Of a stretch of 64,000 nt of DNA, positions 1 through 59,650 are shown in pieces (positions within the stretch are counted from its first letter, which is position 1; each line of letters starts with the position of its first letter). The notes under the pieces are model-generated. The model saw only the letters and a list, made by a program, of their open reading frames with translations, was not told where the DNA came from and did no database searches. The translations under genes were made by a program, and so were the position numbers. The stretch is taken from NCBI GenBank assembly GCA_031260975.1, contig JAISKJ010000003.1, positions 65,480 to 129,479 on the forward strand, written 5' to 3'. The DNA is from Christensenellaceae bacterium (GTDB lineage: Bacteria > Bacillota > Clostridia > Christensenellales > UBA1242).

Positions 1-1
1 T

Positions 2-94
2 ACTGAACCGGACAACCCTTATAGCGTAACTAATTCTGCTTTTGACGCAACGTATAAGGTTAATCCGGTGCAAGGAACGGGTCAGAATTTTTAA
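2..94 (+). CDS. 3' end of an upstream ORF (partial, product unknown)
   Basis: Frame open from the window edge (TEPDNPYSVTNSAFDATYKVNPVQGTGQNF*), TAA at 92-94, followed by a hairpin. Too short to identify. Confidence 0.35.
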   Translation, partial: TEPDNPYSVTNSAFDATYKVNPVQGTGQNF

Positions 95-105
95 ATTAGT
101 AATTT

Positions 106-133
106 AGGCTCGCGTTTTCGCGGGCTTATTTAA
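106..133 (+). terminator. putative intrinsic terminator
   Basis: Stem AGGCTCGCG / CGCGGGCTT (with G-U pairs), TTTT loop, then a weak T-rich tail. Confidence 0.5.
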
Positions 134-202
134 CTTTGCTTAAAAATTGTCCGGCATCGCAGTGCATAAAATGGCGGGGCACCCCGCTTTGGGGAGGGTT
201 AT

Positions 203-2401
203 ATGGGTGAATACTATTTTTCGGGGGTGGGCTTTTATGACCTGCAGGAGAGCAGAAAGAAAAATCAGGAGTATGCTTTAAGACAGCAGGAGTTTAATAA
301 GCAGGCAGGCCGCATAAAGTCATTTGAAAACAAAAAAGACAGGACGGCTTTTTTGAAGCAGCAATTTTTAGAGAAAGATGAGTTTATTAATACTGCCACT
401 AACAGTCAGTTGATGCGGATATTTGTCGCTTTCAGGGATTTGGGCAACTTTGATGAAATGGTTGCTTTTTATGACAAATGCACCAATGAGACTTTTAAAA
501 ACTCGCTTATGGTAAACGAACTGCTGATGGTGGGATATAATAAATCCGGGGTTCCCGCACCTGACAAAACTATTGAACTTGCAAACAAATTGATTAAAGA
601 AAACCGCGTGAGCGGGGATGTTTACGGGGCTTTGGGAAAAGCCTATAAAATCAAGTCTAATCAGGCAGCCTCTCAGCAAGAGAGTATTATGTATCTGCAA
701 AAATCGGCTGACGCATATGAAGCGGGCTTTGCTAAGTTTGCTGAGTTTTATCCGGGTATTAATGCATAATACCGAAACGTGGAGCTGGCTTTAAAAAAAG
801 AAATGCTGACCGGCCGGATTGAAGCCGGACAAGCCAATAAAGATAGGGCCAAACAATTGGCGGAACTGACTTATCTGGCATGTCTTAAAGAGGGTGCCGA
901 GGGAACAAAGGATTATTGGTGTGTAGCAACCAAGCTGGAGGCTGCCTTTATTGCGGGCGTGCCTCCAGACCAGATTATAGACAGCTTGGACGCAATTCTT
1001 AAAATGAATGTCCCCGATTGGCAGATACAAACAACGAGAGATTCTATTTTGGGTGTTGCCGGTTATAATAACCCGGAAACAGTAAACATTATTGTTGAAA
1101 AACTAAATGAAAAAATAGAAAATGTAGTTCAAAATCAAGTTGCTTCTGAAAAAAATCAAACTAATAACTCGGCAGGCTTTAAAAAAGCTGAGATGCTCAA
1201 AACATGGAGCTATAACTACAGAGGTTTTGCTTCCAACTTTGAAGGAGCTAATTATATAGGCGGAAACACTAAGTTTGGCGGACAGTTGCCGGACCATTCG
1301 ATTTCACGAAAAGATATTGAAATATTTGACGGTCTTTTGGGCAAACCCATAGAGCAGCTCTTTCCTGAAGGAAAGGTACCTGACAAACTGAAAGAATATG
1401 GTTGTCTTAAAGATATTAATAATGCAGAAGAATTTTTAGATGCAACAAATTCTTTTATAAGGTTTCACTTTGGAACGGAAAACTTTGCCGGCACAGGTCT
1501 TAATCTTGAAAATAACGCCGAACATAAAGATGCCGACGGTACAAGCGCTTATGACAGAACGGTGAAATCACTGTTTTATGTTGCCGGCAAAGAAAACAAT
1601 AAAGAGGCAGATTCGCGCACAAGTATTTCGGCTATGTTTGCGTTGGGTCTGGGGGACTGCCGTCACCATGCGCAGGTAAAGCAGCTTATGTTTGACAGGT
1701 GGCAGGGCGAGCAGATGAACGGATTTCTTATGGATGCTTATGAAGCTTCAAATAAAGGGGATACGGCGGCGTATAACAGCGCGGTGGAGAAGTTTTATGA
1801 TACATGCTATACGGAGTTGCGCACAATTGATGTATGTATCTGCGCACCTGTAGAAATTGATAAGATATATGAGCCCAACAAAACAAGCGACGGAAAGTAT
1901 ATAAAAGGCAGTTCTGGTTGTCAGTTGGAAGATCATACCATGAATATTCTCATAAAAACAAACAGGGAAGGAGAGCTAAACGACTGTAAGATTGTTGACA
2001 GTTTTTATCACAACAATTATGATTGGGCAAATCATGATGTGGGCATCGGCGGAGTTAATATAAAGACAATAAAAGAAAAACAATGGGACGGCACCTTTGC
2101 CGAAAGACAGGTATTTGAAATTGATGCCGGTAACTTAGACGGTAGCAAGGTTGATACAGATGAGAGTCTGCCGATAAAGATAATTCCTACCGTATACGGC
2201 AAGGGACAGCGTGAAGAACAAAGCCCGGATACGGGCGACCATCTGACTATTCTGGGCACTCCCACCAAGATAGACAGTGTTGAAGATATAACAAACATTT
2301 TGCAGAACCGTGAGGATATGGAGAATATTTTGAACAGGTTTAGAAGTTTTCATATGCAGCAGCTGCAGACTGCCGACGGCCCGTCGCAGCAGATGATATA
2401 A
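203..2401 (+). pseudogene. helical-repeat (DUF4071/TRAF-binding-like TPR) protein with a C-terminal putative Cys-His-Asp (transglutaminase/papain-like) domain, interrupted by an in-frame TAA at 767-769
   Basis: ORFs 203-769 and 779-2401 are in the same frame, separated only by TAA and three sense codons. There is no SD before the GTG at 779; a strong SD (GGGGAGGG) precedes 203. The motifs GALGKAYK...FYPGINA|YRN and DYWCVATKLEAA span the stop. Downstream lie GLGDCRHHAQ ... LEDHTMN ... VDSFY. Confidence 0.55.
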
Positions 2402-2403
2402 AT

Positions 2404-2437
2404 AAAAAATCCCCGCGCTTTACGTGAGGATTTTTTT
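2404..2437. terminator. bidirectional intrinsic terminator between convergent genes
   Basis: A-run, stem ATCCCCGCG / CGTGAGGAT (8 of 9 pairs), then a T7 run. Confidence 0.7.
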
Positions 2438-2439
2438 AA

Positions 2440-2643
2440 TTACATTTTGTATTTTTTCTGGAACTTTTCTACACGGCCGCTGGTGTCGACTATCTTTTGT
2501 TTGCCGGTATAAAACGGGTGGCATTTGTTGCAAATTTCCACCTTTATAACTTCTCCCGCTTTGGTTGAACGGGTTTTAAATTTTTCGCCGCAAGCGCAGA
2601 TAACTTCAACTTCATGATAATCCGGATGTAAATCTTTTTTCAT
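2440..2643 (-). CDS. rpmE: 50S ribosomal protein L31 (Cys-containing form)
   Basis: [22 protein letters not shown]...[13 protein letters not shown] is the classic L31 sequence with its zinc motif. Confidence 0.95.
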
Positions 2644-2847
2644 AGTCCTTCACCTCTATCTAAAATTTGTTTTACAAGTATACTATATAGTTTTGCTTTC
2701 GTCAACCCTTTTTGAGAGTTTTGCCATATATTTAGGCCCTAAAGCTCACTGCATTAAAGAAAGAGCCTTTTTCTTATGTAAATTACTTGACAAAATCCGA
2801 CAATTTTATTAACATTATGTCGACTCTCTCAAAAGGAGGCTTGGAGT

Positions 2848-4080
2848 ATGAGCAAGACATGGCGGAGTATTTTATATGCCATGGGCTCTCTTTCAGCCCT
2901 TTGTATTTTTATAGCGATTATGATTACGGTTGTTCCTCAAAACGAGGAACGTTTTTTGATTTTTTCAACCAATAAAATAGAAATTAACATAAACAGTGAG
3001 GTTGACCTGAAAAACATAAAAATTCAAACTAATCTGCCGCATAACGCAATAGAATTCAGCTCAGAAGATGAAAGCATTTTTATGATTGAAAACAACAAAA
3101 TCAAACCCGTGGGAATTGGCAGCGGCAAGCTTTTAGCTCAAGCGTCTGTGGGAGATAAGGTCTATCATAATTCTGTTTTGGTCGAAGTAAAGTCGCTGCC
3201 GGCAGACGACGATGACATAGATTTTGGCGTACAGTTGTGTTATAAGGGTTCGGTCTATGATTTTGCCGGATTTAATCAGGACATAAATTTATATTTGCCG
3301 GGCGGAACTTCTGCGGAGCATCAGGCAGCTGAGGCAGCAGGTTTTTTCAGGAGTTTTTATTTTGATATGCCGTCTGGTGTTGATGTTTCGGCTGACGGCC
3401 TGTGTGTAAGTGTCACAGAAAATATTGTTACTGCTTCAGGTGTAGGAAACTGTCTTATAAAGGTTACCAACAAAAACATAGGAAAGTTCAAAACCGTAAA
3501 GGTTTTTGTTTCAGGAATTCCGCTGACGGATGTTGTGCTTAGCTGCGATAGCAGCCTGACGCTTGAAGTAGGACAGTCAATGACATTGCCTGCCGTTCAG
3601 TTTACTCCGAGCTTTGCAAGTGATTTTTATAAAACTTCTTCGTTTGATATAAAAAATTCTAACATTGTATATTTTGATACAGACCGCTTTGTTGCCAAGA
3701 GTGTAGGGCAGACTCAAATAGTTTTTAAGTACGGCGAAATCGAAAAGACCGTTCAGATAGTGGTGATGCCCAAAGCACAAGAGATTGTTGCTGAATTTTT
3801 AATGATTGACCATCTGGGCAGAGCGACAATACGGGTTCAGTTATTTTTAAACGGTGCTCTTGTCGGAATATCGTCCGGCGCTGTAAGCACAAAATTTATA
3901 ATAGACGGCACGGAGTATGATACTCTGAATTATATGAGCTGCGGGCAAGACCTGAGTGCTTCAATGGTGTATGACTATGTATATAAAGTGAGCGGAGCGC
4001 TGCCTAATGAGTTTGCCGTCAAGTTTTATTTGACAAGCAATCCCGAAATATTTGAGATTGTTTATATTGTGATAAGCTGA
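2848..4080 (+). CDS. membrane-anchored protein with bacterial Ig-like (Big_2-type) repeats
   Basis: SD AGGAGG upstream, N-terminal TM helix, and repeated 'V..G.G...I.V' beta-repeat segments (KPVGIGSGKLLAQA, ASGVGNCLIKV, AKSVGQTQIVF). Confidence 0.55.
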   Translation: MSKTWRSILYAMGSLSALCIFIAIMITVVPQNEERFLIFSTNKIEININSEVDLKNIKIQTNLPHNAIEFSSEDESIFMIENNKIKPVGIGSGKLLAQASVGDKVYHNSVLVEVKSLPADDDDIDFGVQLCYKGSVYDFAGFNQDINLYLPGGTSAEHQAAEAAGFFRSFYFDMPSGVDVSADGLCVSVTENIVTASGVGNCLIKVTNKNIGKFKTVKVFVSGIPLTDVVLSCDSSLTLEVGQSMTLPAVQFTPSFASDFYKTSSFDIKNSNIVYFDTDRFVAKSVGQTQIVFKYGEIEKTVQIVVMPKAQEIVAEFLMIDHLGRATIRVQLFLNGALVGISSGAVSTKFIIDGTEYDTLNYMSCGQDLSASMVYDYVYKVSGALPNEFAVKFYLTSNPEIFEIVYIVIS

Positions 4081-4221: not shown

Positions 4222-4932
4222 ATGGGTATTTTTGATGAAGAAATTTTTTATAACAGAGACGATTATGATGAGCTTGATTTTGCAGAACATAGGGATTTGT
4301 TTTTGCGTCTGCGAAGCTGGGTGGTTGATGCCGACAAGCCTACGAGATATAACAGAGACAAATATCGCAAGCTTGTTACTAAAAAAATTGAAGAAATAGC
4401 AGGCTACGCCTGCATGGGGCATATTCCGGCACAGGATTATATGGGGTATATTTATAAGCGGGGCTTTGGCGACTTTTTTCCGATAAACTATAAGCGAGCG
4501 CTTGAGTGGAACATAATGGCTGCCAGAAACAGCAGCAAGCTCGCTCCGCAAAAAATGAAAGCGTTTTTAAATCCTGCTATAGATAAAATTTTTGAGAGCC
4601 CAAGATTTGGTCAGGTTGTAAAGGCCAACGGGCTTAATTTACGCAACTATTATTGGTTTTTAAGTCAGTATATTTGCGACATTCTATATGATGAGATGAA
4701 GCTAAATCCACCGGATATGGCAAAGAAAGAACTCATTGAAGAAGATTTGAACGAAACAGGAACAATTATATCCTTGGACCGTATGAGAGACAGAAGCGTT
4801 GACAAGGCGCTGGAGCGGCTCATCAAGGAGCTTCCTGCAGATATTAAGGATGACGGCGATATAATCGTGTCGGCGGATGACCTAAAAGACCCCGATGAAA
4901 TTGATATAGAAATTGATACAAGTAAAATATAA
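4222..4932 (+). CDS. hypothetical protein with one Sel1-like repeat and an acidic C-terminus
   Basis: AQDYMGYIYKRGFGDFFPINYKRALEWNIMAA resembles a Sel1 repeat. An SD is present. No further assignment is possible. Confidence 0.4.
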   Translation: MGIFDEEIFYNRDDYDELDFAEHRDLFLRLRSWVVDADKPTRYNRDKYRKLVTKKIEEIAGYACMGHIPAQDYMGYIYKRGFGDFFPINYKRALEWNIMAARNSSKLAPQKMKAFLNPAIDKIFESPRFGQVVKANGLNLRNYYWFLSQYICDILYDEMKLNPPDMAKKELIEEDLNETGTIISLDRMRDRSVDKALERLIKELPADIKDDGDIIVSADDLKDPDEIDIEIDTSKI

Positions 4933-15974: not shown

Positions 15975-16601
15975 ATGCCAAAAGTTAAAGTTTATAATCA
16001 GAAAGCGGAAGTTGTTGGCAACCTGACACTGAGTGACGAAGTGTTTGGACAAGAGTATAACGAACCACTAATACATCAAGTTATTGTGGCATACAACAAC
16101 AACCAGCGCCAAGGCAACAAAAGTGCACTTACTCGCAGCGAAGTGAGAGGGCACGCCAAAAAGCCCTGGAGACAAAAGGGAACAGGAAGAGCCCGTCACG
16201 GCTCATCAAAAGGTCCTCAGTGGACAGGCGGAGGAGTGGTGTTTGCACCCAAGCCCCGCGACTTTAGTCAAAAAGTTAACAAACAGGCAAAGGTTGCAGC
16301 CTTCAAAAGCGCACTTAGTGCCAAGACTGCCGACCAGGAACTTATTGTTTTGGACGAGCTTAAGATTAAGGAACCCAAAACACAGAAGTTTGTGCCTGTA
16401 ATGGAAAAATTTAAAATCGAAAAACGCGCATTGTTTGTGCTTGCTGACAAAGACGAAAATATCTTAAGGGCTACAAACAACATTCCTAACATATCCGTTA
16501 CTTTTGCCGACGTTTTAAACACTTATGACGTAGTGGCAAACGCTAAGGTATATATTACGCAGGATGCCGTTAAGAAAATAGAGGAGGCATACAAATCATG
16601 A
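15975..16601 (+). CDS. rplD: 50S ribosomal protein L4
   Basis: RQGNKSALTRSEVRGHAKKPWRQKGTGRARHGS. Confidence 0.97.
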   Translation: MPKVKVYNQKAEVVGNLTLSDEVFGQEYNEPLIHQVIVAYNNNQRQGNKSALTRSEVRGHAKKPWRQKGTGRARHGSSKGPQWTGGGVVFAPKPRDFSQKVNKQAKVAAFKSALSAKTADQELIVLDELKIKEPKTQKFVPVMEKFKIEKRALFVLADKDENILRATNNIPNISVTFADVLNTYDVVANAKVYITQDAVKKIEEAYKS

Positions 16602-16900
16602 ACGCCTACGATATTATTAAAAAACCGCTGCTGACCGAGAAAAGTTATGCCGACATAGCAAACAAACGCTATACTTTTGTGGTTGATAAAGACGCCAACA
16701 AAATTGAGATTAAGCAGGCGGTAGAAAAGATTTTTAAAGTCAAAGTAAAACAGGTTAATACACTAAACGTAAGGGGCAAAGAAAAAGCTCAGAACACGAA
16801 AAACGGCAGGACTGTAGGGAAAACATCTTCCTATAAAAAAGCTATTGTGTGGCTAGCAAGTGATAGCAAGCCGATTGAGTTTTTTGAAAGCCTGAACTAA
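16598..16900 (+). CDS. rplW: 50S ribosomal protein L23
   Basis: [12 protein letters not shown]...[20 protein letters not shown]. Overlaps the rplD stop. Confidence 0.96.
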
Positions 16901-16917
16901 GAGAGGAGGAAAGAATA

Positions 16918-17745
16918 ATGGCTGTAATAAGACATAAACCAACAACTCCTGCGCAAAGACATCTAACCACCGCTGATTTTTCGGTTTTGACCAAAAAGAA
17001 ACCCGAAAAATCATTGCTTGCGGTTAAAAACAAGTCGGGCGGAAGGAATGCCAATGGAAGAATTACCGTAAGGCACACCGGCGGAGGAAACAGACAAAAA
17101 TATAGATTGGTTGATTTCAGACGTAATACGGATGAAGTTCCTGCCAAGGTAACCGCAATTGAATATGACCCCAACCGTACTGCTTATATAGCACTGCTTA
17201 CATATGCCGACGGCAGAAAGTCATATATATTGGCTCCGGTTGGCCTCAATGTTGGTGACACTGTGGTTTCAGGCGTAAATGCCGAAATAAAGGTGGGAAA
17301 CAACCTTCCGCTTGAAAACATACCTGTAGGTTCGGTTGTTCACAACATTGAAATTTATCCGGGAAGAGGCGCACAAGTAGCACGTTCTGCCGGAATTTCG
17401 GCAAGGCTTATGGCAAAAGAGGGCAAATATGCCACTATTAAAATGCCCAGCGGCGAAATGCGTATGGTTCCGATTGCCTGCCGTGCAACTTTGGGGCAGG
17501 TGGGGAACATTGAACACGAAATTATTAACCTCGGAAAAGCAGGAAGAAAAAGACACATGGGTGTCAGACCTACTGTCAGAGGAAGCGCGATGAACCCTGT
17601 TGACCACCCGCATGGTGGTGGTGAAGGAAAGGCACCGATTGGAAGACCCGGTCCTGTTACACCTTGGGGCAAGCCTGCATTGGGTCTTAAGACCAGAAAC
17701 CGCAAAAAGAGTTCGAGTAAACTTATTATAAAGCGTGTTAATTAG
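16918..17745 (+). CDS. rplB: 50S ribosomal protein L2
   Basis: [17 protein letters not shown]...[19 protein letters not shown]. Confidence 0.98.
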
Positions 17746-17756
17746 GAGAGTGAATT

Positions 17757-18038
17757 ATGAGTAGATCATTAAAGAAAAAGCCGTTTGTGGAGCAGAGACT
17801 GTTTAACAGGATTGCCGCAATGAACGAAACAAATACCAAAAAGCCCGTAAAGACATGGTCTAGGGCATCGGTTATATACCCAGAATTTGTAGGTCACACT
17901 ATTGCTGTTCACAACGGCAAAAAGCATATGCCGGTATACTGTACCGCTGAAATGGTTGGCCACAAATTGGGTGAGTTTGCTCCGACACGAACTTTCCATG
18001 GGCACGCCGCCAGCAAAACCAAGGGCGGGAAGAAATAA
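17757..18038 (+). CDS. rpsS: 30S ribosomal protein S19
   Basis: [10 protein letters not shown]...[16 protein letters not shown]...[15 protein letters not shown]. Confidence 0.97.
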
Positions 18039-18049
18039 GGAGAAGTGAA

Positions 18050-18691
18050 ATGGCAAAGAGAATAAGAGAAAAGGCTGCAAAGATAGAGCTAAACAGAGAC
18101 AAACGCCCTGTTGCGCACGCCAAACACATAAGAATAAGCCCCTCAAAAGTGCGCCTTGTGGCCGATCTGGTGAGAGGTAAAAGTTATAACGAAGCCGTTG
18201 CTGTTTTAGAAAACACTCCTAATGGTTCGGCTATAGCTATTTTGAAGGCAATAAAATCTGCTGCTGCAAACGCTGAAAACAATCAGAGTATGAACAGGGA
18301 CGACCTGTATGTGGCAGAAATTTATACCGGCCCCGGACCAACTCTTAAGAGAATTAACATCAGAGCCCGAGGCAGAGTGGACAGAATTGCTAAAAGAACA
18401 AGCCACATTACTGTGAGACTTGACAGCAAGGATGCGCCGGTAAAGGAAACCCCTGTGAAGGTAAAAAAGCCTGCAGCAAAGACGGAAACAAAAACCACAG
18501 TTAAGCCTGCAGCAAAACCAGCCGCAAAGGCGCCAAAGGTTGAAGCAAAGAAACCTGCCGCAGTTAAAACAGCGGCGAAACCGGCAGCGAAAGCAACAAC
18601 AGAAACCGCAGCCAAGCCTGCAGCAAAGCCCGTTGCGAAAACTGCAACAAAAGCAGCCACCGGCGGCACCGCTGGCGCCAAGAAAAAATAA
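18050..18691 (+). CDS. rplV: 50S ribosomal protein L22 with a C-terminal Lys/Ala/Pro-rich extension of about 90 aa
   Basis: The core is RISPSKVRLVADLVRGKSYNEA...RINIRARGRVDRIAKRTSHITV. The KPAAK-type tail runs from about 18425. Confidence 0.95.
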   Translation: MAKRIREKAAKIELNRDKRPVAHAKHIRISPSKVRLVADLVRGKSYNEAVAVLENTPNGSAIAILKAIKSAAANAENNQSMNRDDLYVAEIYTGPGPTLKRINIRARGRVDRIAKRTSHITVRLDSKDAPVKETPVKVKKPAAKTETKTTVKPAAKPAAKAPKVEAKKPAAVKTAAKPAAKATTETAAKPAAKPVAKTATKAATGGTAGAKKK

Positions 18692-42218: not shown

Positions 42219-42722
42219 ATGACCCCAAACCAGATAAGAGACTTTAATGATAAGTGCGAAGATTTCTGCGACAAGCATAACTTCGACTATAATTTGTTTG
42301 TTGCAAGAATACTCAAAGAAAATGTAAATGCCTATGGGAAATTTGTGTCCACTCCAATTGAAACATTTGATGCAGGTGCTATATTGGGCGAAGATCGAGT
42401 TAATGAGATAAGAGAAGCTTATGAAGAAGATCTTAAAAATTTTAAGGTAAGAGTGGAGTTAATAAGTAATTGGTTGGGAATGGAAGAGTTGTATGTCGGC
42501 CTCTTCTGGCACATGTATACACCTGAAGGAATAGATAAAATATTTGAAAAAGATTCTGACCATTATAAGCAAGTCCAATCAGACTTTAAAGAAAAAGAAA
42601 CCAAACTAGATACGGATAGTATAAAGGCAGAAAAAGAAAATATTGCTGTTGAATTAATAGGACTTACCAAGTATGAAATACCTGCCCTTAAGGAAGAGTT
42701 GCAAGAAAAAACCTTTAGATAG
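42219..42722 (+). CDS. acidic helical hypothetical protein (cassette gene 1)
   Basis: SD GGAGGT is present. 167 aa, Glu/Asp/Lys-rich, with no motif I recognise. The next gene follows 8 nt downstream. Confidence 0.6.
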   Translation: MTPNQIRDFNDKCEDFCDKHNFDYNLFVARILKENVNAYGKFVSTPIETFDAGAILGEDRVNEIREAYEEDLKNFKVRVELISNWLGMEELYVGLFWHMYTPEGIDKIFEKDSDHYKQVQSDFKEKETKLDTDSIKAEKENIAVELIGLTKYEIPALKEELQEKTFR

Positions 42723-42730
42723 GAGTACAT

Positions 42731-44113
42731 ATGGTAGATTGGAAGAAAGTAGAACCAAGCACGAAAGAAAGCTTTTCTTTGGAAGAGCAGAAAGCCTTGT
42801 TGTCTCTTATTTCTCTGCCCGATAAATATGTGCTGCTGAACCTAATAAAAAAGTATTCCGGAGAGAAAACCTCTCTGCCGATTGTTAACGAAGAAAGCAT
42901 TAAAGATACAAGAACAAGAGTTAATTCAATGAAGAAGAATGACAATTTCCCGACCGAGGATGAAATTAACAATTGGAAAAAGGAAGAAATTAATAAAATT
43001 ATACAAAAGCAGCTGAATGACCCTAATGTTTCCAGACGTTCAAGGCTTACATTAGTTATTGGTTCGGCCGGTGCCGGAAAATCAACTACGAGTGAGCATA
43101 TTTCAAAAGACAAGCGTGCGTTCCATGCAGATGCCGACCACATTAAAAAGCGTATAGCTGAGGATTTTGATTGTGACATTAATCATGATAACATGCATAA
43201 CATAAGTACAGACATAATTAAGGAAGTGATTGCCGCAGCCGCGCCACATAAATTGGATGTTGTATTAGAGAAAATCGGAGAGAAACCGCACAAAATCTAT
43301 AAACAGATTATGGAACTTGAAGCCCTGAAGTATTCTATTGGATTAAACTTGGTTCATGTTTGTGAAGAAATTGCAAGAACAAGAAACAATGACAGAGCAA
43401 ATGAGTTGATGGCTAAAAATGAACCGCCTAGGTTTGTTGAGGATGAATTGCTGAAAGAATTCGGTGAAGGGCCTTTCTTCTCGTATCTTTTTTTGGCAGT
43501 CAGATGCCCGGAAAAATTCTCATATTGCAAAGCATTTAGCAATGAAGGACCGTTGCGTGAACTGCCTATACCGCTTCATACATTATCCGTCAAAGACGGA
43601 AAGATATTGGGACCAGCAAATGACCCATGTGCAAAGAAAGTTGATGAACAAATATCATCCATATGTTTAAAAAGCACCGTTCGGGCACTTAAGTCGCTAA
43701 ATGAAGAGCGGGAAGATGCAAGTATAAAATATTTAACAAGTAAGATGGAAGTATTATGTTCAGACGATGAAAAGGCAAAAAAAGAAGTAAAAGATTCTAT
43801 TGAAAGAATTCGTGTGAAAAAAGATTGTGGTGTGGAGTGTATGCCTGAGGAAGCAAAACTGCTTGACTTATATGACAATGTGCAGACAAATAAGCACGGA
43901 GCGTTAATGCGGATTTATGACCCGCAGAATATTGACGACAGAGAATTGTTAGAGAAAAATGAAGATGGAGGTTTGGCAATAACCTTTGTCTTTGAAAGTG
44001 TTGTAGGCAAGCCCCACAACACAGATAGATATAACGAGCCGTATGAATTGGTAAATGCAACAAAAGACAAAGTTGGCACCATACTAGGCTTAAGTAAAGA
44101 GGTTTCACAATGA
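42731..44113 (+). CDS. zeta-toxin-like P-loop kinase with unassigned N- and C-terminal domains (cassette gene 2)
   Basis: Walker A LVIGSAGAGKST, then FHADADHIKKRI, LDVVLEKIG and IGLNLVHVCEEIARTRNNDR, in the order seen in zeta/AAA_33 kinases. About 100 aa N-terminal and about 190 aa C-terminal are unassigned. Confidence 0.6.
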   Translation: MVDWKKVEPSTKESFSLEEQKALLSLISLPDKYVLLNLIKKYSGEKTSLPIVNEESIKDTRTRVNSMKKNDNFPTEDEINNWKKEEINKIIQKQLNDPNVSRRSRLTLVIGSAGAGKSTTSEHISKDKRAFHADADHIKKRIAEDFDCDINHDNMHNISTDIIKEVIAAAAPHKLDVVLEKIGEKPHKIYKQIMELEALKYSIGLNLVHVCEEIARTRNNDRANELMAKNEPPRFVEDELLKEFGEGPFFSYLFLAVRCPEKFSYCKAFSNEGPLRELPIPLHTLSVKDGKILGPANDPCAKKVDEQISSICLKSTVRALKSLNEEREDASIKYLTSKMEVLCSDDEKAKKEVKDSIERIRVKKDCGVECMPEEAKLLDLYDNVQTNKHGALMRIYDPQNIDDRELLEKNEDGGLAITFVFESVVGKPHNTDRYNEPYELVNATKDKVGTILGLSKEVSQ

Positions 44114-45951: not shown

Positions 45952-46028
<77 letters not shown>

Positions 46029-50379: not shown

Positions 50380-52143
50380 ATGAAAAGGTTTAAATTTACT
50401 CCTCTGGGTTTTGGAATTGTAAACGGTGCATGTGTAGTGCTGAACGGACTCGGAGCATACGCGGTTTTCAACAACCTTGAAACTAAAGTATATTCGGTAA
50501 AGGTCTCCCGGTTTATGGGAGGCATAAAGCATGTTCCGATTATCCGTGGCATTATTTTGTTTTTTTATTATATATGGCTGTGGTTTAGGCTGCTGGACAT
50601 ATCATATACTCATTTTGATGTAAGTGCTGCGCGAAAGAGTGCCAAAAACCGGAAGTTTCTTGAAAAGCGCAGCCGCACTTTTTATATAATCTGTACCTGC
50701 CTTATTTTGGGGGTGTTTATAGTTTTCCCTATGCTGTTCAATCTTTTGTTGTCTCTAGCTGGAGTAAATGATACCCAGACGCTCACTATAGTCAGTGTGT
50801 TTTTTAAGATAGCGTGCTTATTTATGCTGTTTGTTTTGTTAAAGAATATATCTGTCAGCAAAACATTGTTTAAGTATAATTATGCCGTAAACAAGGTGTG
50901 CAATGCTTATTCTTACGGCAATTCACTTAAGTATTCAAAGGTTTTGTATGCAAGCCCCTATATGGCCCTATCTCCCTTCAACTTTTTTATATTGAGCCTC
51001 ATATTGATTTATTCGTTGATTCCCGTTCTCACATTTCTGGGCACGGGTCTTTTGGGGGTTGTTTTTAATATAATCGCCAGCATATTGATTATTTGTCTTG
51101 CCTATGAAGTGCTTTTTGTTATAGAATATACAAAAGGCCGCTTTGTGCCGATGAGATATTTTAGCTACCTGTTTGTGTGGCTGAGTTGGTTTAGCATATC
51201 CAAGTGCGAAAGCAAGCACCTTAGGATTGCCGAAGCCGCTATGGAGGAAGTTGTGGAACTTAATTTTGACAAGATAAATGGGCTTAATGCAGAAGACTTT
51301 GCAAAAGATGACATAAAGTTTAGTTTGGTCTATAACGAGGTTAAGACTGAGCTTTTGAACGCGGGCATTGATGATACGTCAGAAACTGATCTCTTGATTG
51401 CTCAGGCTCTAAACCTTAAGCGCAGTGATATATTATTTTTAAGAAAGTTGAGGCCCACGGATTATAATAAAATAAGGGAGCTTTTAAAAAGGCGCCTTAC
51501 ACGTACTCCTCTTGACAAAATTTTGAAGCGTAAAGAATTTTTTAGGGAAGAGTTTTATGTTGATGATTTTGTTTTATCTCCCCGGCCCGAAACCGAAATT
51601 CTGGCTGAAAGAGTGGTAAACTATGTCAATAAGAAAAAAGAAAAATTTAATGTGCTTGACATGTGCACAGGCAGCGGATGTATTGCTGTTGCGGTTGCTA
51701 AAAACACGAGTGCATCTGTTGTAGGGGTAGATTTCAGCAAGCGCGCACTTGCTGTTGCACGCAGAAACGCCATAAACCTTGGGGCGAATGTAAATTTTGT
51801 TTTGAGTGATATGTTCAAAGACTTGAAAGAGACCAAAAGATTTGATATAATAGTGTCGAATCCACCATATGTAGCAACGGGGGAAATTAAAAACCTTGAC
51901 AAGGAAGTTAGGGAGCATGACCCGATTATGGCGCTTGACGGAGGAGCCGATGGGCTTAAGTTTTATAGGATACTCGCAGCGGAGGCCCCAAAGTTTTTAA
52001 AGGAATACGGTAAGCTATTTTTGGAAATAGGAATTGGGCAGGCGGAAGAGATTGTGAAACTTCTGACACAAAACTTTAAGGATATAAAAGTCACTAATGA
52101 TTATTCAAATATTCCGCGTATAATCGAGGCAACCAGAAAGTAA
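50380..52143 (+). CDS. prmC: fusion of a DUF1385-like membrane domain with release-factor glutamine methyltransferase PrmC
   Basis: The C-terminal half has LDMCTGSGCIAV and IVSNPPYV. The N-terminal half is multi-TM with YNYAVNKVCNAY where DUF1385 (YqhQ) has YHGAEHKVINCY. Confidence 0.8.
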   Translation: MKRFKFTPLGFGIVNGACVVLNGLGAYAVFNNLETKVYSVKVSRFMGGIKHVPIIRGIILFFYYIWLWFRLLDISYTHFDVSAARKSAKNRKFLEKRSRTFYIICTCLILGVFIVFPMLFNLLLSLAGVNDTQTLTIVSVFFKIACLFMLFVLLKNISVSKTLFKYNYAVNKVCNAYSYGNSLKYSKVLYASPYMALSPFNFFILSLILIYSLIPVLTFLGTGLLGVVFNIIASILIICLAYEVLFVIEYTKGRFVPMRYFSYLFVWLSWFSISKCESKHLRIAEAAMEEVVELNFDKINGLNAEDFAKDDIKFSLVYNEVKTELLNAGIDDTSETDLLIAQALNLKRSDILFLRKLRPTDYNKIRELLKRRLTRTPLDKILKRKEFFREEFYVDDFVLSPRPETEILAERVVNYVNKKKEKFNVLDMCTGSGCIAVAVAKNTSASVVGVDFSKRALAVARRNAINLGANVNFVLSDMFKDLKETKRFDIIVSNPPYVATGEIKNLDKEVREHDPIMALDGGADGLKFYRILAAEAPKFLKEYGKLFLEIGIGQAEEIVKLLTQNFKDIKVTNDYSNIPRIIEATRK

Positions 52144-59487: not shown

Positions 59488-59650
59488 TTGAATATCTAAA
59501 AATCTTTTGCCAAAGACAGCAAGTGGGGAAACCCGTAAAACTTTATGGTTGCTTGCCGAGGTAAGTATGAGTTTAAAACTGTGTTTTAAAATCCTATGCT
59601 TATTTCGGCGTAGGATTTTTTGATAGAAATTTTAAAGAAGGAGGACATAT
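59488..59650 (+). promoter_or_regulatory. L10 (rplJ) leader with internal terminator/attenuator hairpin
   Basis: The position matches the Firmicute L10 leader. A 10-bp hairpin AATCCTATGC/GCGTAGGATT (59590-59617) is followed by a T-run. Confidence 0.6.

What the first reader, a model, noticed from the sequence alone, without database searches (positions are those of the whole stretch)
203..2401. 732-codon helical-repeat plus Cys-His-Asp domain gene interrupted by one in-frame TAA
Seen in sequence:
- ORFs 203-769 and 779-2401 share a frame and are separated only by TAA (767-769) and three sense codons.
- No SD precedes the GTG at 779.
- The stop falls inside what reads as one continuous helical-repeat domain (...GALGKAYK...FAEFYPGINA*YRNVELAL...DYWCVATKLEAAFIAG...). 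I recall this pattern from DUF4071/TRAF-binding-type TPR domains, which occur on bacterial conflict-system proteins.
- The C-terminal 400 aa carry GLGDCRHHAQ, then LEDHTMN about 90 aa later, then VDSFY about 20 aa after that. This spacing fits transglutaminase/papain-like Cys-His-Asp enzymes.

Inference: this is a sensor-plus-effector protein that is a recent nonsense pseudogene, depends on readthrough or reinitiation, or reflects a sequencing error.
Basis: partly seen in the sequence, partly recalled or inferred. Interest (0 to 1): 0.6.

Follow-up and report, generated by a model that had tools for sequence, protein, structure and literature searches.

The report
Single-stop-broken sensor-plus-unknown-enzyme gene
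One gene in a gut-type Christensenellaceae genome, which in every relative encodes a single ~700-residue protein (an ASK1-like helical-repeat domain joined to an uncharacterised conserved domain), is cut in two by one TAA stop codon; it is most likely a recently inactivated gene, so the case is ordinary, although the C-terminal domain family itself is undescribed.

Summary
ORFs 203-769 and 779-2401 share a frame and are separated only by TAA 767-769 plus three codons. A GGAGG precedes ATG203; nothing like it precedes GTG779.

The fused translation matches Pfam MAP3K_TRAF_bd (formerly DUF4071, E=1e-11, residues 63-282, across the stop) and TPR-S. A profile of the family matches the ASK1 central regulatory region (5ulm, 2e-11).

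All 70 homologues are single proteins of about 480-930 aa. In 35 related loci the frame is open 460-914 residues upstream of the GDCRHH motif; only this genome is interrupted. An independent Logan assembly of SRR14710919 has the same TAA.

All family-invariant residues are kept and there is no second lesion, so the break is recent. Relatives carry Val (GTA/GTT) at this codon. The TAA completes a perfect 7-bp inverted repeat (755-773), so a template-switch origin is possible.

The transglutaminase idea is not supported. Pfam, PDB sequence profiles, Foldseek (PDB, BFVD) and hhalign against real PF01841 proteins (probability 0.05%) all find nothing. What remains is an invariant Cys at a helix N-terminus, with His and Asp in or next to adjacent strands.

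The C-terminal domain (about 250 clusters, nearly always behind this TPR) is an unnamed family.

Verdict: probable recent nonsense pseudogene; low-to-moderate interest.

The parts
191..198 (+). Shine-Dalgarno-like GGGGAGGG upstream of ATG203
   Evidence: Sequence; a 5-nt SD core was found in -20..-4.
203..766 (+). 5' gene fragment (188 codons): N-terminal region plus the first half of the ASK1-like TPR domain (TPR-S, residues 82-188)
   Evidence: NCBI calls it MDR0850038.1 'TRAFs-binding domain-containing protein'.
767..769 (+). In-frame TAA that replaces the Val codon (GTA/GTT in relatives) of the motif EFYPGINA-V-YR
   Evidence: The base is identical in the independent Logan assembly L040.
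755..773 (+). Perfect 7-bp inverted repeat GGTATTA-ATGCA-TAATACC whose 3' arm contains the stop codon
   Evidence: It is the only stem>=7 hairpin in the gene; such hairpins cover 1.6% of the window.
779..2401 (+). 3' gene fragment (540 codons plus stop), called as a separate hypothetical protein by JGI and NCBI (MDR0850039.1); no SD precedes it
389..1048 (+). MAP3K_TRAF_bd (ex-DUF4071) / ASK1 central-regulatory-region-like TPR domain, fused residues 63-282, spanning the stop
   Evidence: Pfam E=1.1e-11; family profile vs ASK1 5ulm E=2e-11 and 8qgy E=5e-11.
791..835 (+). Lineage-specific insertion of about 15 residues (KKEMLTGRIEAGQAN) just after the stop, absent from most homologues; modelled with low confidence
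   Evidence: Alignment A1; pLDDT is 54-56 for residues 1-20 of the 540-aa model.
1181..2398 (+). Conserved C-terminal domain of about 400 residues with no assigned family; invariant GLGDCRHH, K493, Q494, E576, H578, D599, F601, Y602 and more
   Evidence: AF2 model has pLDDT 91.3 and pTM 0.91.
1658..1660 (+). Codon of invariant Cys486 (N-terminus of a 32-residue helix in the model)
1934..1936 (+). Codon of invariant His578 (inside a long beta-strand)
1997..1999 (+). Codon of invariant Asp599 (two residues after the end of the next strand)
2404..2436 (.). Hairpin flanked by an A-run and a T-run between the convergent gene ends (this gene and rpmE): terminator-like on both strands
   Evidence: Fold gives -12.7 kcal/mol, z=-3.7. 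rpmE lies at 2440-2643 on the minus strand.

Best explanation
This is a recently inactivated copy (a nonsense pseudogene, or a null allele dominant in the sampled population) of a stand-alone gene. Intact, the gene encodes one ~730-residue cytoplasmic protein with two parts: an ASK1-type TPR domain (Pfam MAP3K_TRAF_bd / TPR-S) that most likely binds a ligand or partner and controls the second part, and a tightly coupled ~400-residue C-terminal enzyme-like domain of an undescribed family. That domain has an invariant Cys-His-Asp set plus several invariant Arg/Lys/Asp/Glu/Gln residues.

In this Christensenellaceae genome the Val codon (ancestrally GTA) in the TPR motif EFYPGINAVYR has become TAA. 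Translation from the only SD-equipped start therefore ends after 188 residues, in the middle of the TPR domain, and the catalytic part is made at most in traces by SD-less reinitiation at GTG779.

The GT->TA change perfects a 5-bp quasi-palindrome into a 7-bp perfect inverted repeat. It may therefore have arisen in one step by replication template switching; the alternative path is GTA->TTA->TAA.

Shown: one gene, one stop, domain identities, intact relatives, same base in a second assembly. Inferred: loss of function, recency, origin of the mutation, and the sensor/enzyme roles.
For: - The frame is continuous and a single Pfam domain spans the stop.
- All 70 homologues are single proteins; most cover about 90-99% of the fused sequence.
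- In 35 other loci the frame is open 460-914 aa upstream of GDCRHH; it is cut at 294 only in this genome. Clostridia relatives L006 (694 aa) and L036 (1100 aa) are intact.
- The Logan contig assembled independently from SRR14710919 is 100% identical over window 1-2700, including the TAA.
- No SD precedes GTG779 or ATG803, whereas GGAGG precedes ATG203.
- Recency: there is no frameshift or second stop in 732 codons. All family-invariant residues are kept. Only 8 of 92 strongly conserved columns deviate, mostly conservatively, against 1-6 for the nearest relatives and 12-29 for distant intact ones.
- The 540-aa AF2 model has pTM 0.91 with the partial TPR packed on the C-domain, so the two halves form one unit.
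- The TPR is found directly upstream of the C-domain also in giant proteins.
- Relatives carry GTA/GTT at the codon. The stop lies in the only perfect 7-bp hairpin of the gene.
- The rest of the window consists of intact ordinary genes.
Against: - No read-level data and no second strain: both assemblies probably derive from the same sample, so a population polymorphism or a systematic error at a hairpin cannot be excluded.
- No relative closer than 47% identity exists, so dN/dS could not be measured, and 'recent' rests on the absence of further damage.
- GTG779 lies 9 nt after the stop, a distance at which termination-reinitiation can occur without an SD. A 540-aa product is therefore not excluded.
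- The hairpin coincidence is only p of about 0.016, and a two-step path via Leu is equally possible.
- The function of the intact protein is entirely inferred.
Confidence: 0.62

Rival explanations
1. The split is tolerated or functional. Ribosomes terminating at TAA767 reinitiate at GTG779, 9 nt downstream. This gives a 188-aa TPR fragment and a 540-aa TPR-remnant-plus-enzyme protein that work separately or reassemble.
For: The stop and a start codon lie close together in the same frame. Both parts remain perfectly open with all invariant residues. The 540-aa part alone gives a confident model.
Against: No SD precedes GTG779 or ATG803. The cut falls inside a conserved TPR helix motif, not at a domain boundary. 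None of 35 other loci or 70 homologues is split. Residues 1-20 of the 540-aa product are poorly modelled.
Confidence: 0.12
2. The stop is not in the organism's real consensus sequence. It is a sequencing or amplification artefact, or a minority allele fixed by the assemblers, and the gene is intact.
For: This is a single metagenome-assembled genome with no read data available here. The site lies in a perfect short inverted repeat; from my own knowledge such structures can provoke sequence-specific errors or template switching during amplification. Everything else about the gene looks functional.
Against: Two different assembly pipelines give the identical base. The difference from the ancestral GTA is a double substitution, not the indel typical of sequencing errors. 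No other gene checked in the 64-kb window shows damage.
Confidence: 0.18
3. Programmed stop-codon readthrough or recoding of TAA produces the full 732-residue protein.
For: The frame is preserved and downstream conservation is intact.
Against: TAA is also the gene's own terminator and the commonest stop of long ORFs in the window (35 of 66). From my own knowledge, the context TAA-T is a strong terminator, and no bacterial TAA recoding system is known; selenocysteine uses TGA and pyrrolysine uses TAG. Only one tRNA, Arg-ACG, lies in the window. No relative has a stop here.
Confidence: 0.03

Closest known systems
ASK1/MAP3K5 central regulatory region (TPR part; PDB 5ulm, 8qgy; Pfam PF13281 MAP3K_TRAF_bd, formerly DUF4071)
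   Same: The N-terminal helical-repeat domain is homologous by sequence: Pfam E=1e-11 on the fused protein, family profile vs 5ulm E=2e-11 over about 240 residues, including the G-I-N motif next to the stop. Foldseek also picks 5ulm for the TPR remnant, at probability 0.87 but a non-significant E-value of 0.9.
   Different: There is no kinase domain and no detectable PH domain; the TPR is followed by an unrelated ~400-residue domain. The protein is bacterial and stand-alone.
Bacterial TPR-S ('Tetratricopeptide Repeats-Sensor', Pfam PF20308) proteins of predicted conflict systems
   Same: The TPR-S model matches residues 82-188 (E=2e-11, above the gathering score). The architecture is a repeat domain fused to a conserved putative catalytic domain.
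   Different: There is no PADLOC hit. No NTPase or other partner gene is conserved. The neighbours are housekeeping genes. The C-terminal domain matches no family in Pfam, NCBIfam or PADLOC.
Transglutaminase-like / papain-like Cys-His-Asp thiol enzymes (e.g. Pfam PF01841 Transglut_core)
   Same: Cys, His and Asp are invariant in that order. The motif G-D-C-R-H-H-A resembles G-x-C-x-x-F-A. In the model the Cys lies at the N-terminus of a helix, the His inside a strand and the Asp just after the adjacent strand.
   Different: No sequence, profile-profile or fold match was found. The Cys-His spacing of 92 residues is, from my own knowledge, longer than is typical. Many additional invariant charged residues (R369, D371, R420, E436, R487, K493, E576) suggest a different or more elaborate active site.
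Ordinary nonsense pseudogenes or split genes in bacterial genomes and MAGs
   Same: A single premature stop in an otherwise intact ORF, annotated by pipelines as two adjacent genes.
   Different: Nothing substantive. The only unusual detail is that the stop completes a perfect inverted repeat.

Membership tests
MAP3K_TRAF_bd / DUF4071 (PF13281) | Score above the Pfam gathering threshold | tested here: met
   44.8 bits against a cut-off of 24.1, E=1.1e-11, residues 63-282 of the fused translation. The 540-aa part alone falls below threshold (16.1 bits), showing that the domain needs both halves.
MAP3K_TRAF_bd / DUF4071 (PF13281) | Homology to the solved ASK1 central regulatory region | tested here: met
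   Family profile A2 vs 5ulm_A gives E=2.1e-11 and vs 8qgy_A gives E=5.2e-11.
TPR-S (PF20308) | Score above the Pfam gathering threshold | tested here: met
   44.6 bits against a cut-off of 27.6, residues 82-188, ending exactly at the stop.
Known anti-phage defence / conflict systems | Match to a defence-system protein model | tested here: not met
   PADLOC-DB gave no hit for either part at E<=1.
Known anti-phage defence / conflict systems | Conserved partner genes or a defence-island context | tested here: not met
   Neighbours are housekeeping genes in the window and in homologue loci. No neighbour family is shared across clades.
Transglutaminase-like superfamily (Transglut_core PF01841) | Sequence or profile similarity to the TGase core | tested here: not met
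   No Pfam hit at E<=10 for 16 members. hhalign of the C-domain profile A5 against an alignment of 25 real PF01841 proteins gave probability 0.05%.
Transglutaminase-like / papain-like fold | Structural similarity of a confident model to solved members | tested here: not met
Transglutaminase-like / papain-like fold | Catalytic Cys at a helix N-terminus, with His and Asp on adjacent beta-strands, all invariant | tested here: inconclusive
   The three residues are invariant in 60 sequences. The secondary-structure context fits.
Nonsense pseudogene | Orthologues encode one uninterrupted protein across the site | tested here: met
Nonsense pseudogene | The stop is present in the reads/organism and the product is absent | not testable with these tools
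   Only a second assembly from run SRR14710919 could be compared, and it was identical. No reads or expression data were available.

The most novel reading that the evidence does not exclude
The C-terminal ~400-residue domain may be the founding example of a new enzyme fold or family: an invariant Cys/His/His/Glu/His/Asp set plus Arg/Lys residues, with no match in Pfam, the PDB or BFVD. It is obligatorily coupled to an ASK1-type TPR and spread patchily among host-associated, episymbiotic or predatory bacteria: gut Alphaproteobacteria with T4SS genes nearby, Chlamydiota, CPR, Omnitrophota giant proteins, Obscuribacterales. If so, it could be a ligand-gated toxin or effector module, and the bacterial counterpart of the ASK1 sensor-to-enzyme design. 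Separately, the stop codon here could be a natural example of quasi-palindrome template-switch mutagenesis creating a null allele in one step.
Probability: 0.2. Interest if true: 0.6.

Novelty: new member of a known kind. Interest (0 to 1): 0.3.

Why it matters
As a finding about this window it matters little. A single premature stop in a non-essential accessory gene of one metagenome-assembled genome is routine, and the main practical value is correcting an annotation that lists two genes (MDR0850038.1 and MDR0850039.1) instead of one disrupted gene.

The wider point is that the ASK1-type TPR domain is fused, in a few hundred bacterial protein clusters, to a large, strongly conserved, confidently modelled domain. 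That domain has no family assignment and no detectable structural relative. Working out its chemistry could show what this sensor module controls in bacteria.

The palindrome-completing double substitution is a small, testable illustration of template-switch mutagenesis.

Tried and rejected
- TGase/papain membership: rejected as unsupported after Pfam, NCBIfam, PDB sequence profiles, Foldseek vs PDB and BFVD, and hhalign against real Transglut_core proteins.
- Closer relatives for dN/dS or an independent look at the codon: none above 47% identity in the 5.8-billion-protein search, none in GTDB representative genomes, none in JGI metagenome contigs. Exact-product look-ups of the 540-aa protein returned nothing.
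- Conserved gene neighbourhood: only clade-level synteny with a P-type ATPase.
- Genome-wide recoding or sloppy assembly: rejected, because the other same-frame ORF pairs that were checked are distinct real genes and TAA is the commonest stop.
- Recent horizontal transfer: no GC anomaly, 40-43% against 40.9% for the window.
- Literature searches for DUF4071, TPR-S, PF13281 or TRAFs-binding domains in bacteria: nothing relevant.
- Rfam and tandem-repeat scans: nothing near the gene.

Full report
**Observation.**
- ATG203 opens a frame that runs 188 codons to TAA767-769.
- After three sense codons (TAC CGA AAC), GTG779 opens 540 further codons in the same frame, ending at TAA2399-2401.
- A GGGGAGGG Shine-Dalgarno element sits at 191-198. 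No 4-6-nt SD core lies within 20 nt upstream of GTG779 or of the next ATG at 803.
- The quoted motifs are present: Cys486, His578 (92 residues later) and Asp599 (21 residues after that).

**It is one gene.**
- The fused translation hits Pfam PF13281 MAP3K_TRAF_bd (the former DUF4071) at E=1.1e-11 over residues 63-282, straight across the stop at 189. It also hits PF20308 TPR-S at E=2.4e-11 over residues 82-188.
- The 540-aa part alone falls below the PF13281 threshold.
- A search of 5.8 billion proteins found 70 homologues. Most cover about 90-99% of the fused sequence as single proteins of 690-930 aa; the few shorter ones include partial records. The nearest is only 47% identical.
- In the alignment the stop replaces the Val/Ala/Thr of the conserved motif EFYPGINA-x-YR.
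- In 35 other genomic loci carrying the GDCRHH motif, the frame is open for 460-914 residues upstream of it. Only this genome is cut, at 294 residues. Two other Clostridia MAGs have intact genes of 694 and 1100 aa.

**Source and reality of the stop.**
- Exact look-up identifies the two products as MDR0850038.1 ('TRAFs-binding domain-containing protein', 188 aa) and MDR0850039.1 (hypothetical, 540 aa). Both come from a Christensenellaceae MAG on an 828-kb contig, so public annotation treats them as two genes.
- The neighbours are rpmE, a SpoVT-like regulator, a SpoVB/MurJ-like flippase, pgk-gpmI-tpiA, SpoIIE and rpsD-rpoA. This is an ordinary Firmicute chromosome with intact genes.
- The other same-frame adjacent ORF pairs that were checked are real separate genes.
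- A contig assembled independently by Logan from run SRR14710919 is 100% identical over window 1-2700, including the TAA. This argues against an artefact of a single pipeline. It cannot exclude a polymorphism or a systematic read error, because no reads or sister strains were available.

**Age and origin of the lesion.**
- There is no second stop or frameshift in 732 codons, and every family-invariant residue is retained.
- At 92 strongly conserved columns the window sequence deviates 8 times, mostly conservatively. The nearest intact relatives deviate 1-6 times and distant intact ones 12-29 times. This fits a recent event.
- Relatives use GTA or GTT (Val) at the codon, for example L023 GGC ATT AAT GCT GTA TAC C. 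GTA->TAA is an adjacent double change.
- The stop lies in the 3' arm of a perfect 7-bp inverted repeat, GGTATTA-ATGCA-TAATACC (755-773). This is the only such hairpin in the gene, and hairpins of this class cover 1.6% of the window.
- With GTA the repeat would be a 5-bp quasi-palindrome. Template switching during replication, which perfects quasi-palindromes (established mechanism, from my own knowledge), would produce GT->TA in one step. A stepwise path via TTA (Leu) is equally possible. This point is inference.

**What the intact protein is: N-terminal half.**
- A profile of the family matches the solved ASK1 central regulatory region (5ulm E=2e-11; 8qgy E=5e-11) over about 240 residues.

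**What the intact protein is: C-terminal domain.**
- The ~400 C-terminal residues (window 1181-2398) have no hit in Pfam, NCBIfam or PADLOC and none among PDB sequences even at E<=10.
- AlphaFold models are confident: 540 aa with pLDDT 89.8 and pTM 0.91; C-domain alone with pLDDT 91.3 and pTM 0.91.
- A profile search of 1.84 billion representatives finds 247 proteins (140 below 1e-30). The domain sits towards the C-terminus of proteins of 500-5000 aa.
- In the giant or longer proteins where Pfam recognised anything upstream of the C-domain, it was the same TPR-S/MAP3K_TRAF_bd domain, directly adjacent. One such protein also carries a NUDIX domain, and another protein has a cNMP-binding domain without a recognisable TPR. 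Most of the ~900-1,070-aa proteins scanned gave no Pfam hit at all.
- TPR plus C-domain is therefore a coupled module. The high pTM of the 540-aa model suggests the two pack as one unit.

**Transglutaminase hypothesis.**
- Evidence in favour is limited to three points: Cys, His and Asp are invariant; the motif looks like G-x-C-x-x-aromatic-A; and in the model the Cys starts a long helix, while the His lies in a strand and the Asp two residues after the end of the next strand.
- I fetched real PF01841 proteins, aligned 25 of them, and compared profiles. hhalign gave probability 0.05%.
- Membership in the transglutaminase-like superfamily is therefore not supported.
- The many other invariant charged residues (R369, D371, R420, E436, R487, H488, H489, K493, E576) allow other chemistries. 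I could not inspect the triad geometry because model coordinates are not exposed.

**Biological role.**
- There is no PADLOC hit and no conserved partner gene. The only recurrent neighbour is a P-type ATPase, within one alphaproteobacterial clade. The surroundings are housekeeping genes.
- The family is patchily distributed: many gut and rumen Alphaproteobacteria MAGs (one locus has VirB8/CagX genes about 6 kb away), a few Clostridia, Chlamydiota, CPR lineages, Obscuribacterales, Altimarinota, and Omnitrophota giant proteins.
- This fits either an intracellular sensor-gated enzyme or a delivered effector. I cannot decide between them.
- The most likely working model is that the TPR binds a signal or partner and gates the C-terminal enzyme. 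This is inferred from the obligatory fusion and by analogy with ASK1, whose TPR region regulates its kinase (from my own knowledge).

**Consequences of the stop.**
- The TAA-T context is a strong terminator (from my own knowledge), and TAA is the commonest stop in the window. TAA is not a known recoding codon.
- The cut falls inside a TPR helix motif rather than between domains, and no SD serves the downstream part.
- Loss of function is therefore the best reading (confidence about 0.6).
- Weak reinitiation at GTG779, 9 nt downstream, cannot be excluded (about 0.12). Nor can an error or minority allele (about 0.18). Readthrough is unlikely (about 0.03).

**Verdict.** The TGase assignment is unsupported. 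The phenomenon is an ordinary, probably recent nonsense disruption. Residual interest lies in the undescribed C-terminal domain family and in the palindrome-completing mutation.

Noticed in passing
window 755-773: The in-frame stop lies in the 3' arm of a perfect 7-bp inverted repeat (GGTATTA-ATGCA-TAATACC). Relatives carry GTA/GTT here, so the GT->TA double change perfects a quasi-palindrome, which suggests template-switch mutagenesis.
   Followed up: partly
window 791-835: A lineage-specific insertion of about 15 residues (KKEMLTGRIEAGQAN) sits immediately after the stop. It is absent from nearly all homologues and is modelled with low confidence.
   Followed up: partly
window 173-198: A G+C-rich hairpin (GCGGGGCACCCCGC) lies directly upstream of the SD GGGGAGGG. 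The CCCC arm could alternatively pair with the SD. The fold energy is not better than shuffles (z=+0.4), so this is probably nothing.
   Followed up: partly
window 2848-4080 and 4222-4932: Two sizeable ORFs (410 aa and 236 aa) just downstream of rpmE have no Pfam match.
   Followed up: no
window 50380-52143: A single 587-aa ORF combines DUF1385 (residues 52-293) with a PrmC-type N5-glutamine methyltransferase (PrmC_N plus MTS). It may be a gene fusion or a missed stop; this was not examined.
   Followed up: no
window 42731-44113: A 460-aa protein with a Zeta-toxin / AAA_33 kinase-like domain (E=1e-11). An overlapping minus-strand ORF at 42715-43179 was not checked.
   Followed up: no
window 59492-59630 and 45952-46028: A ribosomal protein L10 leader (Rfam RF00557, 78.5 bits) and a tRNA-Arg(ACG). 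These are ordinary features.
   Followed up: no
P0097, P0108, P0135, P0141, P0144, P0158: The same TPR plus C-domain module is embedded in giant proteins of 2,500-5,000 aa. P0097 and its cluster come from Candidatus Omnitrophota; P0108 also carries a NUDIX domain; P0131 carries a cNMP-binding domain.
   Followed up: partly
L025 (CAVCSV010000025.1): A homologue sits in a bin labelled Limosilactobacillus gorillae, an odd host for this family. It may be a binning contaminant.
   Followed up: no
L008-L030 (15 loci): In one clade of gut Alphaproteobacteria the homologue is always next to a divergently oriented P-type cation ATPase of about 888 aa. This synteny is clade-restricted, not family-wide.
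   Followed up: partly
L002/L003/L004 about 15980-18205: Type IV secretion genes (two VirB8, one CagX) lie about 6 kb downstream of the homologue P0015 in an alphaproteobacterial MAG. This is compatible with, but not evidence for, an effector role.
   Followed up: no
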